DNA of 64,000 bases, taken from NCBI RefSeq assembly GCF_009914755.1, contig NC_060939.1; one strand, written 5' to 3'. Source of the DNA: the human T2T-CHM13v2.0 reference genome, Homo sapiens. Every line of letters starts with the position of its first letter. Position 1 is the first letter of the stretch. The notes under the pieces were generated by a model. That model was not told the DNA's origin. It ran no database searches and saw only the letters and a list, made by a program, of their open reading frames with translations. Of the stretch, positions 48,328-59,320 are shown in pieces. The position numbers and the translations under genes were made by a program.

Positions 48328-48726
48328 ATGGCTGTAGCTGTGGACCAACAAATCCAGACTCCTTCAGTACAAGATCTCCAAATAGTTAAACTGGAAGAAG
48401 ATTCCCACTGGGAGCAGGAAATTTCCCTTCAAGGGAATTACCCTGGACCAGAGACATCCTGCCAGAGCTTTTGGCATTTCCGTTACCAAGAAGCATCACG
48501 ACCCCGAGAGGCCCTCCTCCAGCTCCAGAAGCTCTGTTGTCAGTGGCTAAGGCCAGAGAAGTGTACAAAAGAGCAGATCCTGGAGTTGCTGGTCCTAGAA
48601 CAGTTCCCGACTGTCCTTCTCCAGGAGATCCAGATCTGGGTCAGACAGCAGCATCCGGAGAGTGGAGAGGAGGCAGTGGCCCTGGTGGAAGACTTGCAGA
48701 AAGAACCTGGAAGACAGAGGCTGGAG
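48328..48726 (+). pseudogene. SCAND2P: SCAND2P SCAN-domain exon (133 open codons)
   Basis: MAVAVDQQ...[43 protein letters not shown]...[15 protein letters not shown]; phase-0 donor GAG|gtgagc. Confidence 0.92.
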
Positions 48727-49284
48727 GTGAGCTATAAAAACATAGTTCCGAACAGTTAAAATAGAGGTATGTGAGAGACAGAGCTGCCTTGGGTTACTAG
48801 CAGTGTGGGCATACTTCACTATTGATGTTAAACTGGAATTTGCTTATTTCGTGGTCATGGTATCTGCAACTTTCCTTCCAAGTTCAGGCTGACTCTTCAG
48901 AGAATGCACAACATTGGCTGCTCTGAGTGTCCGTCCCTGCCATTAAGTAAGAAAATTGCTTAAAATGGTATGAGCCTCACTGTGATCAGGGAGGAGCACA
49001 TGTGACAGGGATGTCTTTTTGGAGAACAGCTCTCACTCTGTAGCAGCCAGCCAGAGGCAAGCGGCTTCGGTGGTCTTTGTCGACATTATTGAGCCTATTG
49101 CAAAACACCTGAATTATCCTATGTCTTTTTGCCTAGGGTTTGGCAAGGCAGGTAGGAGCAGTCCCCAGAGAGCTGGGTGGCCAGGATGCAGTGGTCCATG
49201 GCCTTATCTCCATAAAGCCTTCCACATGTCTGCCGTCTTTACTGCTGTTGCAGGCTTTTGCATAAGACTGGCTTTTTCCTCTGC

Positions 49285-49588
49285 TTTTTTTTTTTTTTTT
49301 TTTTTTTGGAAAGGGAGACTCGCTCTGTCACCCAGGCTGGAGTGCAGTGGTGCCATCTCGGGTCATTGCAACCTCCGCCAACCGGGTTCAAGCGAGTCTC
49401 CTGCCTCAGCCTCCCTAGTAGCTGGGACTACAGGCGCCCACCACCACGCCCGGCTAATTTTTGTATTTTTAGTAGAGACTGGGTTTCACCATATTGGCCA
49501 GGCTGGCCTCGAACTCCTGACCTTGTGATCCACCCACCTCGGCCTCCCAAAGTGTTGGGATTACAGGCGTGAGCCACTGCACCCAACC
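49285..49588 (-). mobile_element. Alu
   Basis: Reverse Alu; TSD ttcctctgcttttt. Confidence 0.92.
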
Positions 49589-49637
49589 TTTCCTCTGCTT
49601 TTTTATGTTTGGGATGTTTAAGTTTTAGTCCCTACAG

Positions 49638-49850
49638 AATTTTGACCACTTCCAGTCCTTCAAGAGGGACAGGATGTGCTCTCAAAGAAGGAGCCCTCAG
49701 GATCAGTACTGAGTTCTCTAAACATCCATCCGAAGCAAGCACAGACAGAATCTGTCTGTTCCAGGCAATGGTGAAGTTCACAGCAGAACCAGAGGAACAG
49801 TTGAAGCACAGCCCCAAAATAGAACGAACTCTAGCCCGTCCGCAAGAGTG
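49638..49850 (+). pseudogene. SCAND2P: Decayed exon 2 of the ancestral SCAND2 zinc-finger gene
   Basis: Fragments VLQEGQDVLSKK and EPEEQLKHSPK resemble post-SCAN exons (GQEVL..K). The exon ends AAG AGT G|ataaga, read as a GT>AT dead donor. Confidence 0.5.
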
Positions 49851-55927: not shown

Positions 55928-56575
55928 ATTTTCCAATCCATAGGCCCAAAGTGAACTCCCACGTGGAGTAGGATGAAAACCCACAGCATCTAGATCTTCA
56001 AATTCTGGAGAAAAAGAGAGTGTGAAAGACTGCTCAGTGGCTGGGGTGAGAGTCAAGTCTGGCCAGGTGCTAATCTGGAGAAAAGCCAAGACCTGGAGCG
56101 AGCTGGAGTGGCAGGCCCTGGAGGATGAGAAGGTGGCAGGAGTGCACTGGGGATACAAAGAAACCAAGATTTTTCTGGGAATTCTCAGAGGCCTGGATCC
56201 ACGAAAAACTCCGCACCTGCCATCGAAACCACCAGGTGTACCGGATTATGGCTGAGCAGCTGTGAGAACATGGCTTCCTGTGGACCCTGGAGCAATGTTG
56301 CTATCGGTTCAAAAACCTCCTGACCGACTACTGCAAAGCCAGGAGCACCTACACACCAGGCACCAGTGTCTTCTATGATGAGATGGATGCCCTGTTGAGT
56401 CTTGGGGCACTTTCTAACACCTTTGATGCCTTAGAGGTGGTAGGAGGCCTTCTTTGGGATTGAGAGGATTCCAAAGGGAACCAGGGCATAGCACTAGAAG
56501 ATGTGGCGGGATGGTAATGAAATAGTGGAGGAGTCTCAAGAGGAATCCTGGAGGCTTGGTCCCCAGGCCTTGAGG
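55928..56575 (+). pseudogene. SCAND2P: Decayed exon with KRAB-B-like start and Myb/SANT-like (trihelix) domain (56121-56400); 3' end approximate
   Basis: Acceptor ...caaacag|, phase 1; DFPIHRPKVNSHVE*; EDEKVAGVHWGYKETKIFLGIL / EAWIHEKLRTCHRNHQVYRIMAEQL*EHGFLWTLEQCCYRFKNLLTDY...FYDEMDALLS; frameshift ~56187; TGA at 56263-56265. Confidence 0.85.
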
Positions 56576-57574
56576 TGGAATCCCAGTGGCAACTCTCCCC
56601 CACAATGGACCTCAGAGCAGTGGGAGCGACGCAGTCCTGTGGGAAGCATTCAGGCTCAGAATCAGGAGATGTGATTATTGTCCTGGCTCTGTTATGACTA
56701 ATTTGGGTCTGGAATGGCCTCATCGGGGGAAAAATTGGTGACAACTTTAAGAAATACTGTTTATATCCCGTCCTCAAATATTGCTTGACTCAACCCTCTA
56801 CTGAACCAGTAGTCCAGGGTGGCTCACAAAGACCACTTTGAGGCTCTTGCTCTGCTCTTTAGCCAAGGAGTCTCCCTTCCTGCCTTCAGTAACAACATTA
56901 CAGGAAGAGAGGAGAGAAAGGTAGGAGTTAAAGATCCAGTCATTTGTTTCCATCTAAAGTGCCCTATAAGCCGGGCATGGTGGCGCAAGCCTGTAGTCCC
57001 AGCTACTCGGGAGGCTGGGGCAGGAGAATCACTTGAGCCCAGGAGTTGGAGGCCGCAGTGAGCTGTGATCATGCCACTGCATTCCAGCCTGGGCGACAGA
57101 GTGAGACCCAGACTCAGCTGAAAAATAATAATATTATTAAAAGAATTTAAAATAAAGTGTTCCATAGATGTGAACCCTGCGTAGATTATACACACCAGTC
57201 TGCCATTTAAAAGGTTTGTTGTTCTTGGGCAACCTCTTTAAATACCCTTAGCCTCCATTTTCTCATCTGGACAGTGGACATTGTGATGGTTTCTACCTCC
57301 CTGGGCTGTTATGAGGATCCTGACACAGTATTAGCACTTGGCAAACGTTAGTTTTCATTATCATCATCATTATAATTATTATGAAAATAGATAAGGGCAT
57401 TATCCTGTACCCTCAAAGGAGTAAAAGGGGGAAAATGAGTCATTAAACTTTCTCTTCTGGGAACTAGACCTTCTTGAGAGGCACTATCATTCTCATTTCA
57501 CCTGTCACTTCCAGACATGGGAGCAGAAAGTGAATTTCAGAACTCCATGTCCCCTCCTGCTTTTCTCTGAGCAG

Positions 57575-57682
57575 GACTTCCAGTTCCCCAGCCAGATGGG
57601 GTCACAATGCTGCAGAAAAGTGAAGAGCTTTGGAATGAAGATCTCCCGGACTTCAAGGAGATTCAGAAAACGTCCAGTGCAG
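57575..57682 (+). pseudogene. SCAND2P: KRAB-B-like exon of ancestral SCAND2 (still open)
   Basis: Acceptor cttttctctgagcag| and donor G|gtggga; phase 1 to 1; GLPVPQPDGVTMLQKSEELWNEDL. Confidence 0.72.
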
Positions 57683-57929
57683 GTGGGAAATGAATGGGAG
57701 CTAGCATTCCACCAACAAAGTCAGCCCTGGGATTCTAAACTCGGACAAGCCAGCACTGGTTAAGGGCTGAGGGGAACCAGGCACTCAGTGCACCCAGTTT
57801 ACTATTCTGTGGTGTGGAAAGCACAGGACTTGAGAAGCAGGTGGCACCCAGGAAAGCCTGTTCCCCTAAGTAAGTTTGAACTTTAGTTACTTGAAAAAAG
57901 GTATAACTGAATTATGAGTGTTTATGATT

Positions 57930-59320
57930 TTATCTTTATTTTATTTTTTTTGAGATGGAGTCTCACCCTGTCACCCAGGCTGGAATGCAGTGGCACAATC
58001 TCGGTTCACTGCAGCCTCTACCTCTCAGGTTCAAGCAATTCTCCTGCCTCACCCTCCTGAGTAGTGGGGATTACAGGTGTGCCACCACCATGCCCGTCTC
58101 TAATTTTTATATTTTTAGTAGAGACGGGGTTTCACCATGTTGGCCAGGCTGGTCTTGAACTCCTGACCTCAAGTGATCCACCCACCTTGGCCCCCCACAA
58201 AGTGCTGGGATTACAGGCGTGAGCCACTGTGCCTGGTCTATCTTTAAATTCCTATCTGAATTTGTTTAGGTTTTTTAAATAAAAATCTTTCTTTTTTTTT
58301 AGAGACAGGGGTTCACCATGGTGCCCAGGCTGATCTCGAACTCCTCCTGGACTCAAGCTATCCTCCCACCTCAGCCTCCCAAAGTACTGGGATTACAGAC
58401 ATGAGCCACATGCTTGACCTGAATTTTAACTGCAGTTAATTATCACTTAACCAGCGAATTCACACAGGAGAAATCCCCTGGCCGGGCGCGGTGGCTCACA
58501 CCTGTAATCCCAGCTCTTCGGGAGGCCGAGGTGGGTAGATCACAAGGTCAAGAGATCAAGACCATTCTGGCCAACATGGTGAAACTCCGTCTGTACCAAA
58601 AATACAAAAATTACCTGGGCATGGTGGTACGTGCCTGTAATCCCAGCTACTTGGCAGGCTGAGGCAGGAGCATTGCTTGAACCCATGAGGTGGAGGTTGC
58701 AGTGAGCCGAGATCACGCCACTGCACTCAAGCCTGGGTGACAGAGCAAGACTCCATCTCTACTACAAAAAAAAAAAAAAAAAAAATTCAACCACCTTAGG
58801 AAGCCTCTCATTTATGTATTTCTAGCATGTAATTAGTGTTGCACATGGGAAGGGCTAATAGATGCTGACAGAGTGAACAACTTATCTATTTTGTGTGTGT
58901 GTGTGTAACAGGGTCTCATTCTGTTGCCCAGGCTGGAATACAGTGGCATGATCACAGCTCACTGCAAACTTCAACTGCCAGGCTCAGGCAACCCTCCCAC
59001 CTCAGCCTCTTGAATAGCTGGGACTGCAGGCTCATACCACCACAACCAGCTAACTTGTATTTTTAGTAGAGACAAGGTTTCGCCATGTTGCTCAGGCTAG
59101 TCTCGAACTCCTGGACTCAAGTGATCCACCTGTCTTGGCTGCCTACATTGCTGGGATTACAGGCATGAGCCACCATGCCCAGCCAAATTTTTTTTTTTTT
59201 TTAAGGGAAGGGATCTTGCTATGTTGCCCAGGCTGGTCTCAAACTCCTCAGCTCAAGCAATCTGCCCACCTCAGCCTCTGAAAGTGCTGGGATTACAGGC
59301 ATGAGCCACCATGTCCAGCA
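57930..59320. mobile_element. Alu cluster: antisense ~57930-58237, 58292-58420, 58905-59185, 59188-59320; sense 58480-58785
   Basis: Alu consensus blocks. Confidence 0.88.
58423..58479 (+). pseudogene. SCAND2P: C2H2 finger/linker remnant
   Basis: CAG CGA ATT CAC ACA GGA GAA ATC CCC = QRIHTGEIP at 58452-58478, wedged between two Alus. Confidence 0.6.

What the first reader, a model, noticed from the sequence alone, without database searches (positions are those of the whole stretch)
48328..58479. SCAND2P is the fossil of a full SCAN-KRAB-Myb/SANT-zinc-finger gene, reconstructable exon by exon
Seen: an ordered series of splice-site-bounded segments: SCAN (48328-48726), post-SCAN exon (~49638-49850), linker (53769-53842), KRAB-A (54776-54899, one TAG), KRAB-B-like plus Myb/SANT exon (from 55928; stops and a frameshift), KRAB-B-like exon (57575-57682) and QRIHTGEIP (58452-58478). 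Phases chain correctly from 49850 to 55928. Established: SCAN plus GVHWGY.ETK Myb/SANT plus C2H2 defines the ZKSCAN2/ZSCAN20/ZSCAN29/ZSCAN32 group. Inference: a lost member of this family (unitary pseudogene), probably intact between ZSCAN2 and WDR73 in other mammals. Most of it is invisible in the ORF track.
Basis: partly seen in the sequence, partly recalled or inferred. Interest (0 to 1): 0.85.

Follow-up and report, generated by a model that had tools for sequence, protein, structure and literature searches.

The report
SCAND2P: fossil of lost zinc-finger gene
The human pseudogene SCAND2P is the decayed copy of an old mammalian transcription-factor gene that cats, dogs, horses and marsupials still predict as full-length; in humans only its first protein-coding exon remains unbroken.

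Summary
All seven segments are present, on the + strand, in gene order.

- **Significance:** six segments match profiles built from full-length relatives, scored against the whole window (E 1e-5 to 6e-73). The seventh, a QRIHTGE finger-linker motif, had 0 chance matches in 100 shuffles.
- **Origin:** trees of the SCAN and Myb domains place the human pieces with 875-1056 aa SCAN-2xMyb/SANT-C2H2 proteins of cats, dogs, a donkey and six marsupials. All human paralogues tested fall outside. So this is a dead member of the ZSCAN20-like group, not a copy of a living human gene.
- **KRAB:** Pfam detects it only in the marsupial relatives (6 of 16).
- **Not reconstructable:** the zinc-finger exon is gone except about 40 nt, and the two Myb exons are fused into one hybrid.
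- **Lesions:** I count 4 stops and 4 frameshifts, plus two non-GT donors. An EGLN1 retrocopy sits 20 nt past one dead donor.
- **SCAN exon:** still open, giving the published 306 and 152 aa products with out-of-frame tails, but it looks relaxed in great apes.
- **Open points:** synteny could not be tested. A SCAN-zinc-finger origin was proposed in 2002, so this is a refinement.

The parts
48328..48726 (+). Coding part of exon 1: start codon and SCAN domain, 133 codons. No stop or frameshift; GT donor; ends in phase 0.
   Evidence: Pfam SCAN E 7.2e-38; profile E 6.4e-73; sequence.
49667..49850 (+). Fossil post-SCAN exon. The long form starts at 49667; a short-form acceptor lies at 49765. One frameshift near 49748-49766. 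Read by eye only: a GAAC duplication at 49822-49829, a TAG at 49832 and an AT in place of the GT donor at 49851.
   Evidence: Profile E 2.5e-11 and 1.2e-7 in two frames; frameshift-aware alignments to seal, bilby and wolf relatives; sequence.
49861..52504 (+). EGLN1 processed pseudogene (retrocopy body 49871-52494). It is flanked by a 10-nt direct repeat, GCAGTGTGGG, at 49861-49870 and 52495-52504, and has an A-rich tail. It lies in the intron, 20 nt after the exon end at 49850. RefSeq exon 50251-50808 lies inside it.
   Evidence: Sequences. Own-genome DNA search: bases 1-811 match chr1:230.80 Mb at 86% and bases 1140-2570 match chr1:230.75 Mb at 92%, contiguous here.
53769..53842 (+). Fossil linker exon, open, ag/gt-bounded, phase 1 to phase 0. 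It is RefSeq exon 3.
   Evidence: Profile E 9.5e-6; 19 of 34 residues identical to donkey; sequence.
54776..54899 (+). Vestige of the KRAB-A exon, with a TAG at 54815-54817 in place of Gln. The alternative acceptor at 54818 is the one RefSeq uses.
   Evidence: 27 of 43 identical to lynx and 15 of 41 to the opossum stretch that Pfam calls KRAB; profile E 5.5e-7 and 3.1e-5. No Pfam KRAB hit on the human piece.
55928..56588 (+). Hybrid Myb/SANT exon. The 5' part comes from the Myb1 exon, then one Myb domain, then the 3' tail of the Myb2 exon. Stops: TAG 55969, TGA 56263, TGA 56461. Frameshifts near 56002, 56187 and 56512. A GC stands at the donor position.
   Evidence: Pfam Myb_DNA-bind_4 E 1.9e-10; profile E 4.7e-23 to 6e-28; frameshift-aware alignments to donkey and lynx; Myb tree.
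57575..57682 (+). Open, ag/gt-bounded, phase 1 to phase 1.
   Evidence: Profile E 2.1e-19; 18 of 30 identical to lynx and 16 of 33 to opossum; sequence.
58440..58479 (+). The only trace of the C2H2 zinc-finger exon: a finger-linker motif, QRIHTGE, at 58452-58472. It sits in 70 nt of unique sequence between two Alu elements.
   Evidence: Degenerate motif scan: 5 hits in the window, 4 in the ZSCAN2 finger exon, 0.00 expected in 100 shuffles. Profile E only 0.13. Sequence.

Best explanation
SCAND2P is the human remnant of an ancient therian transcription-factor gene.

**Ancestral build.** SCAN dimerisation domain, KRAB-A exon, two Myb/SANT (Myb_DNA-bind_4) exons, a small exon, then a last exon with 7-9 C2H2 fingers. 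It is a fifth member of the ZSCAN20/ZSCAN29/ZKSCAN2/ZSCAN32 group.

**Where it survives.** Full-length open relatives are predicted in cats, dogs, Equus and marsupials. Their finger array is 91-94% identical between lynx and opossum.

**What happened in the human lineage.**
- The DNA-binding half was destroyed. A deletion fused the two Myb exons into one, and the finger exon was lost.
- The middle exons collected at least 4 stops and 4 frameshifts, and two donors are no longer GT.
- An EGLN1 mRNA retrocopy landed in the intron 20 nt after one of those donors.

**What the locus does now (inferred).** The old promoter and SCAN exon still make RNA. The SCAN exon is spliced either to a cryptic acceptor inside the retrocopy or straight to the linker exon. 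This gives 306 aa and 152 aa SCAN-only reading frames whose tails are out-of-frame filler.

The order of the lesions, and which one killed the gene, are not shown.
For: **Presence of the exons.** Profiles built from 16 relatives were scored against all 3796 six-frame pieces of the window. They hit each fossil exon first, E 9.5e-6 to 6.4e-73. Pfam finds SCAN and Myb_DNA-bind_4 on the human pieces.

**Relatives.**
- Lynx, donkey and dingo proteins are SCAN + 2 Myb + fingers; bilby and opossum add KRAB.
- Across the 16 aligned relatives: SCAN 16, Myb 12, C2H2 10, KRAB 6.

**Trees.**
- SCAN tree, 41 rows: the human exon sits in a 21-row clade (support 99/95) of placental plus marsupial relatives. 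All 13 human paralogue SCAN exons fall outside it. The chr1:33.34 Mb SCAN exon (ZSCAN20 locus) groups with two marsupial proteins named ZSCAN20 or ZSCAN20-like.
- Myb tree, 38 rows: the fossil sits in a 13-row clade (100/97) holding only the Myb1 and Myb2 domains of those relatives. That clade is sister to the ZSCAN20 clade. The fossil's end branch is 0.29 against a median of 0.027.

**No human parent.** The best human SCAN match is 64-66% identical among 63 matches. The best human Myb match is 54-58%.

**Hybrid exon and missing fingers.**
- Human 55927-56186 aligns to the donkey Myb1 exon start, and 56136-56605 to donkey Myb2 and its tail. The inter-Myb linker has no match.
- The finger-exon N-terminal profile has no significant hit in the locus (nearest E 0.99, on the opposite strand).

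**Retrocopy.** It has a 10-nt target-site repeat and an A-rich tail.

**Products.** Joining the RefSeq exons gives a 306 aa frame, and SCAN plus the linker exon gives 152 aa. These are the sizes PMC10049278 quotes for AF229246 and AK022844 (passages).
Against: - **Synteny untested.** Orthology rests on sequence and trees only.
- **Predicted proteins.** The full-length relatives are gene predictions. One, from koala, is flagged low quality, and some donkey fingers look degenerate.
- **Conflicting label.** GENCODE's 2012 paper calls SCAND2 a 'duplicated pseudogene' with a parent gene (passage).
- **By-eye reading.** The tail of the post-SCAN exon (GAAC duplication, TAG, AT donor) is my own reading. 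The alignment script did not extend into it.
- **Weak finger trace.** It is 7-13 residues and scores E 0.13 by profile.
- **Not fully dead?** The SCAN exon has no lesion and gives published products. 'Pseudogene' may be too strong for exon 1.
Confidence: 0.82

Rival explanations
1. SCAND2 is not dead. After losing its DNA-binding half, it was kept as a SCAN-only protein that pairs with other SCAN zinc-finger proteins, as SCAND1 does. The downstream exons are irrelevant debris.
For: - The SCAN exon has 0 lesions in 399 nt. The other fossil exons carry 8-11 lesions in 1151 nt, so the chance of none in the SCAN exon is 0.02-0.06.
- The human SCAN end branch is 0.091 against a median of 0.089 in the SCAN tree. 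The Myb fossil's is 0.29 against 0.027.
- SCAN-only predictions of this clade appear in apes, monkeys, lemurs, seals, whales, rhinoceros and elephant: 34 proteins at E <= 1e-35.
- PMC10049278 reports heat-induced SCAND2 mRNA and antibody staining (abstract and passages).
Against: - Both published reading frames end in out-of-frame tails.
- Human differs from orang-utan at 9 of 133 SCAN residues and from gorilla at 4 of 126 aligned SCAN residues; the gorilla prediction also lacks 7 residues inside the SCAN domain. By my rough estimate from recalled neutral divergences, that is near the neutral expectation.
- Human has G58R, L94P and P98L at three positions that are invariant in the 16 relatives. 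Among ten primate predictions the human residue is shared by gorilla only (G58R), by gorilla and orang-utan only (L94P) or by none (P98L).
- Predicted proteins are selected for open frames, so their spread is weak evidence.
Confidence: 0.3
2. SCAND2P is a duplicated (unprocessed) pseudogene: a decayed copy of a gene that is still alive in the human genome, such as ZSCAN20 or the neighbour ZSCAN2.
For: GENCODE's 2012 pseudogene paper labels it 'duplicated pseudogene' and speaks of a parent gene (passage). ZSCAN2 lies 8 kb upstream on the same strand. Its last exon matches the relatives' finger-exon N-terminal profile at domain E 6.4e-12.
Against: - The ZSCAN2 SCAN exon is only 49% identical, and the best of 63 human SCAN matches is 64-66%.
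- Non-human full-length proteins are 68-84% identical and form a well-supported clade with the human exon that excludes all 13 human paralogues tested.
- The same holds for the Myb domain.
- The dog has both this gene and a true ZSCAN20.
Confidence: 0.04
3. The small segments at 49.7, 53.8, 54.8 and 57.6 kb are chance open stretches next to a real SCAN exon and a real Myb fragment.
For: Pfam gives no hit at E <= 1 for any of these four pieces.
Against: Exon-specific profiles from relatives hit each one as the top match among 3796 six-frame pieces, E 9.5e-6 to 2.1e-19. The next-best matches are at E 0.19 or worse. Order, strand, splice sites and phases all agree.
Confidence: 0.01

Closest known systems
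ZSCAN20 (human chr1:33.34-33.36 Mb; protein P0176, 1043 aa)
   Same: SCAN exon, two Myb_DNA-bind_4 exons about 2 kb apart and a C2H2 last exon. Its Myb clade is sister to the clade holding the fossil (98/93).
   Different: A separate old lineage. SCAN identity is 56-59% and Myb 54-58%. ZSCAN20 has relatives of its own named ZSCAN20 in marsupials and dog. It is intact in humans.
Full-length relatives annotated as 'ZSCAN20/29/32/2(-like)': cats (P0021), dogs (P0013), Equus (P0019) and six marsupials (P0026, P0033-35, P0038-39)
   Same: Same exon order as the human fossil. They share one clade with it in both trees. SCAN identity to human is 68-81%.
   Different: They keep two Myb exons and 7-9 fingers. 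Marsupials also keep a Pfam-detectable KRAB. The names they carry do not mark them as SCAND2P orthologues.
SCAND1
   Same: A SCAN-only product that could pair with SCAN zinc-finger proteins. This is the role PMC10049278 proposes for SCAND2 (abstract).
   Different: The SCAND2P frames are truncations of a zinc-finger gene with out-of-frame tails. I did not compare SCAND1 sequence here.
Dupuy et al. [quoted passage not shown]
   Same: Already proposes that SCAND2 arose from an ancestral SCAN zinc-finger gene disrupted by a retroposition. I saw the title in reference lists; the abstract is recalled, and the paper is not held.
   Different: As far as I recall, it names no Myb/SANT or KRAB exons, no hybrid Myb exon and no intact orthologues. 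Here the retrocopy sits in an intron, not in coding sequence.

Membership tests
SCAN-Myb/SANT-C2H2 group (ZSCAN20, ZSCAN29, ZKSCAN2, ZSCAN32) | N-terminal SCAN domain | tested here: met
   Pfam PF02023 E 7.2e-38, 128.7 bits against a cut-off of 27.
SCAN-Myb/SANT-C2H2 group (ZSCAN20, ZSCAN29, ZKSCAN2, ZSCAN32) | Myb_DNA-bind_4 domain downstream on the same strand | tested here: met
   PF13837 E 1.9e-10, 41.5 bits against 27, read with X at one TGA. A whole-genome scan gives 15 loci. Four SCAN-linked genes carry 7 of them and the window carries 1.
SCAN-Myb/SANT-C2H2 group (ZSCAN20, ZSCAN29, ZKSCAN2, ZSCAN32) | C2H2 finger array in the last exon | tested here: not met
   In the human locus only a QRIHTGE trace remains. 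The array is present in 10 of 16 aligned relatives. The human copy is therefore a broken member, filed by descent.
SCAN-Myb/SANT-C2H2 group (ZSCAN20, ZSCAN29, ZKSCAN2, ZSCAN32) | Tree placement inside the group | tested here: met
   The fossil Myb lies in a 100/97 clade that is sister (98/93) to the ZSCAN20 Myb domains.
KRAB box (PF01352) | Pfam score over the cut-off (20.4 bits) | tested here: not met
   No hit at E <= 1 on human 54776-54898. 0 of 10 placental and 6 of 6 marsupial relatives match.
KRAB box (PF01352) | Homology of the human exon to a stretch that is a KRAB box in relatives | tested here: met
   The human exon aligns to opossum residues 229-269, and Pfam KRAB covers 231-264. 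Exon profile E 5.5e-7.
Unitary pseudogene (GENCODE definition, PMC3847767) | Coding frame disabled | tested here: met
   4 stops and 4 frameshifts found by alignment; finger exon missing.
Unitary pseudogene (GENCODE definition, PMC3847767) | Not a copy of a living gene in the same genome | tested here: met
   the closest human SCAN exon is 64-66% identical, and all tested paralogues fall outside the clade.
Unitary pseudogene (GENCODE definition, PMC3847767) | Intact coding orthologue in another species | tested here: met
   Open 875-1056 aa predictions in Felidae, Canidae, Equus and marsupials, placed by two trees. These are predictions, not proven proteins.
Unitary pseudogene (GENCODE definition, PMC3847767) | Orthologue at the same chromosomal place (ZSCAN2 - gene - WDR73) | not testable with these tools
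   No other vertebrate genome is held, and the protein hits carry no coordinates.
Processed pseudogene (EGLN1P1 insert) | Intronless copy of an mRNA with an A-rich tail and target-site duplication | tested here: met
   Two parent pieces about 55 kb apart on chr1 lie within about 330 nt of each other here. An A-rich tail and a 10-nt direct repeat flank the insert.

The most novel reading that the evidence does not exclude
The same ancient SCAN-Myb-zinc-finger gene has been cut down to a SCAN-only reading frame independently in many placental lineages: primates, seals, whales, rhinoceros, elephant and a bat. The SCAN exon was kept because a DNA-blind SCAN partner is useful as a modulator of other SCAN factors. 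That would be repeated, convergent conversion of a transcription factor into a decoy. In apes even this remnant is now drifting.
Probability: 0.2. Interest if true: 0.6.

Novelty: new member of a known kind. Interest (0 to 1): 0.35.

Why it matters
- **Ancestry for a known locus.** A transcribed human 'pseudogene' that cancer-expression studies treat as a gene gets a precise origin. It is the lost fifth member of the SCAN-Myb/SANT zinc-finger group. In species that keep it, the finger array is 91-94% identical between a cat and an opossum, so it is presumably a conserved DNA-binding factor.
- **Nature of the published products.** The published SCAND2 proteins are a SCAN domain plus out-of-frame filler. 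That bears on how antibody and expression data for SCAND2 should be read.
- **Annotation.** Full-length relatives in other mammals currently carry paralogue names such as ZSCAN20-, ZSCAN29-, ZSCAN32- or ZSCAN2-like. They would be better linked to SCAND2P.
- **Limits.** This is a refinement of a 2002 proposal, not a new principle.

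Tried and rejected
- **Pfam on the four small pieces** (49.6, 53.8, 54.8, 57.6 kb): no family at E <= 1. Exon profiles from relatives were needed.
- **First Pfam calls:** two failed on a wrong frame and on a piece that was too short. They were corrected.
- **Remains of the finger exon:** the N-terminal profile hit only ZSCAN2's exon. The array profile gave E 0.13 at 58440-58535. Frameshift-aware alignment of lynx residues 668-1009 to 57683-59900 found only the 14-residue trace.
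- **Tail of the post-SCAN exon:** the alignment script would not extend past 49824 even with mild penalties. The GAAC duplication, TAG and AT donor remain a by-eye reading.
- **Target-site repeat for the Alu at 58480-58786:** none clear, so how the finger exon was lost is open.
- **Literature:**
  - Dupuy 2002 is not held.
  - Searches for SCAND2, SCAND2P, SCAND2 + 'SCAN domain', the four paralogue names, ZSCAN20 + ZSCAN29 + Myb, and 'unitary pseudogene' + 'SCAN domain' found no paper describing the Myb/KRAB fossil exons or intact orthologues.
  - One search listed only 25 of its 45 hits.
  - No supplement was opened.
- **'SCAN exon still constrained':** I first read this from the tree branch lengths. 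I weakened it after seeing the ape sequences.

Full report
**What was checked.** The window is human chr15 (T2T), and the finding covers the annotated transcribed pseudogene SCAND2P. I read every claimed segment and listed stop-to-stop frames.

**Domain tests on the human pieces.** Pfam finds SCAN on 48328-48726 (E 7.2e-38). It finds Myb_DNA-bind_4 on 56074-56462, read with X at one TGA (E 1.9e-10). It finds nothing at E <= 1 on the 49.6, 53.8, 54.8 or 57.6 kb pieces.

**Relatives.** A protein search with the SCAN exon, restricted to longer proteins, returned 1615 hits at E <= 1e-10 (120 listed).
- A distinct set is 68-84% identical over the whole exon.
- It includes 822-1056 aa proteins from cats, dogs, raccoon dog, donkey and six marsupials.
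- It also includes short SCAN-only predictions named SCAND2P from a seal and a lemur.
- Pfam shows lynx, donkey and dingo as SCAN + two Myb_DNA-bind_4 + fingers. Bilby and opossum add a KRAB box at 27-31 bits against a cut-off of 20.4.
- Over the 16 aligned relatives: SCAN 16, Myb 12, C2H2 10, KRAB 6.

**Is it a copy of a living human gene?** No.
- In the human genome the best of 63 SCAN matches is 64-66% identical, and neighbouring ZSCAN2 is 49%.
- The best Myb matches are 54-58%, at chr1:33.35 Mb.
- SCAN tree, 41 rows: the human exon falls in a 21-row clade (99/95) made of a placental group (96/96) and a marsupial group (100/99). All 13 human paralogue exons lie outside. The chr1:33.34 Mb SCAN exon (ZSCAN20 locus) groups with two marsupial proteins named ZSCAN20 or ZSCAN20-like.
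- Myb tree, 38 rows: the fossil falls in a 13-row clade (100/97) holding only the Myb1 and Myb2 domains of the same relatives. That clade is sister to ZSCAN20 (98/93).
- A search with the lynx middle region shows that the dog has both this gene and a true ZSCAN20.
- This contradicts the 'duplicated pseudogene' label in GENCODE's 2012 paper (passage). It fits GENCODE's definition of a unitary pseudogene (passage).

**Exon-by-exon significance.** I cut the alignment of relatives into exon blocks and built a profile from each. I scored each profile against all 3796 six-frame pieces of the whole window.

| Block | Best hit in the locus | E-value |
|---|---|---|
| SCAN | 48325-48756 | 6.4e-73 |
| Post-SCAN | 49646-49771 and 49573-49848 (two frames) | 2.5e-11 and 1.2e-7 |
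| Linker | 53747-53896 | 9.5e-6 |
| KRAB-A exon | 54818-54925 and 54755-54814 | 5.5e-7 and 3.1e-5 |
| Myb blocks | 55977-56460 | 4.7e-23 to 6.1e-28 |
| Myb2 tail | 56266-56460 and 56498-56671 | 9e-5 and 0.002 |
| Small pre-finger exon | 57571-57690 | 2.1e-19 |
| Finger-exon N-terminus | none significant (nearest E 0.99, opposite strand; the only real hit is ZSCAN2's last exon) | - |
| Finger array | 58440-58535 | 0.13 |

- Next-best hits for the small blocks were at E 0.19 or worse.
- A degenerate DNA pattern for QRIHTGE hits five times in the window. Four hits are in ZSCAN2's finger exon and one is at 58452-58472. It was expected 0.00 times in 100 shuffles. The trace is therefore real, but tiny.

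**Anatomy and lesions** (frameshift-aware alignments).
- **SCAN exon:** no lesion; ends in phase 0 with a GT donor.
- **Post-SCAN exon:**
  - The long-form acceptor gives a start at 49667, as in wolf and seal. The short-form acceptor gives a start at 49765, as in the lynx, donkey and dingo isoforms.
  - There is one frameshift near 49748-49766.
  - By eye only, the last 26 nt hold a GAAC duplication, a TAG and an exon end at 49850 followed by AT rather than GT.
- **Linker 53769-53842:** open.
- **KRAB-A vestige 54776-54899:** one TAG at 54815 in place of Gln. The RefSeq acceptor at 54818 is the alternative acceptor that the horse, seal and wolf isoforms also seem to use.
- **Myb exon 55928-56588:** TAG 55969, TGA 56263, TGA 56461; frameshifts near 56002, 56187 and 56512; GC at the donor position.
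- **57575-57682:** open.

*The Myb exon is a hybrid.*
- Relatives and the human paralogues have two Myb exons. In ZSCAN20 and ZSCAN29 these lie about 2 kb apart.
- The human exon starts like the Myb1 exon. Human 55927-56186 aligns to donkey residues 216 to about 300.
- It ends like the Myb2 exon with its tail, up to donkey residue 623.
- The inter-Myb linker has no match.
- Inside the domain, the human residues look Myb1-like early and Myb2-like later.
- This suggests a deletion by recombination between the two near-identical repeats. That is an inference from two marker positions.

*The finger exon is gone.* It would be about 340 codons. Only 70 nt of unique sequence remain between two Alu elements. 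How it was lost is open.

**The retrocopy.**
- The EGLN1 copy runs from 49871 to 52494.
- Its first base matches the parent's first exon (86%). Its 3' part matches the parent's last exon (92%). The two parent pieces are about 55 kb apart on chr1.
- It ends in an A-rich tail and is flanked by a 10-nt direct repeat.
- It therefore sits in the intron, 20 nt after the exon end at 49850, not in coding sequence.
- Whether it killed the gene, as I recall the 2002 paper proposing, or landed in a gene that was already dying, cannot be told here.

**What the locus makes now.**
- Joining the RefSeq exons from the start codon gives a 306 aa frame: the SCAN exon plus 173 residues read out of frame from the retrocopy.
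- SCAN exon plus linker exon gives 152 aa, with 19 out-of-frame residues.
- These are the sizes PMC10049278 quotes for AF229246 and AK022844 (passage).
- That paper reports heat-induced SCAND2 mRNA and proposes that the protein pairs with MZF1 (abstract and passages).

**Is the SCAN exon still under selection?** The evidence is mixed.
- *For:*
  - The exon has 0 lesions in 399 nt, against 8-11 lesions in 1151 nt of the other exons. The chance of none is 0.02-0.06.
  - Its end branch in the tree is ordinary (0.091 against a median of 0.089), while the Myb fossil's is ten times the median.
  - Human SCAN identity to lynx, donkey and dingo is 77-81%. Those three are 77-83% identical to each other.
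  - For the Myb2 domain and tail, human identity to lynx and donkey is 64-69%. Lynx, donkey and dingo are 78-83% identical to each other over that block.
- *Against:*
  - Human differs from orang-utan at 9 of 133 SCAN residues and from gorilla at 4 of 126 aligned SCAN residues; the gorilla prediction also lacks 7 residues inside the SCAN domain.
  - Human carries G58R, L94P and P98L at three positions invariant in the 16 relatives. Among ten primate predictions the human residue is shared by gorilla only, by gorilla and orang-utan only, or by none.
  - By my rough estimate from recalled neutral divergences, the ape differences are near neutral.
- *Reading:* the exon was constrained for a long time after the downstream half died, and is now relaxed in great apes.

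**Distribution.**
- Full-length close relatives (551-933 bits) were seen only in Felidae, Canidae, a hyena (partial), Equus and marsupials. Scores then drop to 455 and below for monotreme proteins named ZSCAN20-like, ZSCAN29-like and ZKSCAN2, marsupial proteins named ZSCAN20/29(-like), and true ZSCAN20s.
- SCAN-only predictions of this clade occur in apes, monkeys, lemurs, seals, whales, a rhinoceros, an elephant and bats. No rodent or rabbit was seen: 34 proteins at E <= 1e-35.
- These are annotation-dependent data. Absence of a prediction is not proof of loss.
- In species that keep the gene, the finger array is 91-94% identical between lynx and opossum, and the Myb domains 85-91%.

**Novelty.**
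- The locus is annotated. A SCAN zinc-finger origin with a retroposition was proposed in 2002. I saw only the title; the abstract is recalled, and the paper is not held.
- Six searches of the held library found no paper describing the Myb/SANT and KRAB fossil exons, the hybrid Myb exon, the missing finger exon or the intact orthologues. One search listed only 25 of its 45 hits, and no supplement was opened.
- I file this as a new, dead member of a known kind, of moderate interest.

Noticed in passing
P0022 (Hipposideros larvatus, 385 aa) in alignment A1, columns 300-700: This bat prediction also has a single Myb domain with the Myb2 tail, but its 5' junction lies further upstream than in human. 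If the model is right, the two Myb exons have been fused independently at least twice.
   Followed up: partly
P0013, P0014, P0016 (canids) against window 54818-54899: The canid proteins read the KRAB-A-derived exon in a different frame from cats and marsupials. So the KRAB vestige is not conserved as protein across placentals.
   Followed up: partly
window 36946-38457 (ZSCAN2 last exon): The part of ZSCAN2's last exon before its fingers matches the finger-exon N-terminal profile of the SCAND2P relatives (domain E 6.4e-12). The two neighbours may be an old tandem pair.
   Followed up: no
window 55705-60143, minus strand: The annotated last exon and 3' UTR of WDR73 overlaps, in antisense, the hybrid Myb exon, the small exon and the finger trace. 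The space where the finger exon should be is now mostly Alu sequence plus WDR73 UTR.
   Followed up: no
P0230 (gorilla SCAN-only prediction), alignment A2 columns 70-76: The gorilla prediction lacks 7 residues inside the SCAN domain. This is either a real in-frame deletion or a gene-model artefact.
   Followed up: no
window 51823-52041: Inside the EGLN1 retrocopy, this ~220-nt stretch matches dozens of loci across the genome at 74-90%. It looks like an Alu; one search does not show whether the parent 3' UTR carries it too.
   Followed up: no
own genome: chr4:59.90 Mb (two hits), chr10:14.86 Mb, chr10:134.19 Mb, chr5:179.25 Mb, chr11:124.83 Mb, chr4:3.25 Mb: These are further Myb_DNA-bind_4 loci with no SCAN exon among the matches. 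The chr4 pair is very divergent, on a 1.69 branch in the Myb tree.
   Followed up: no
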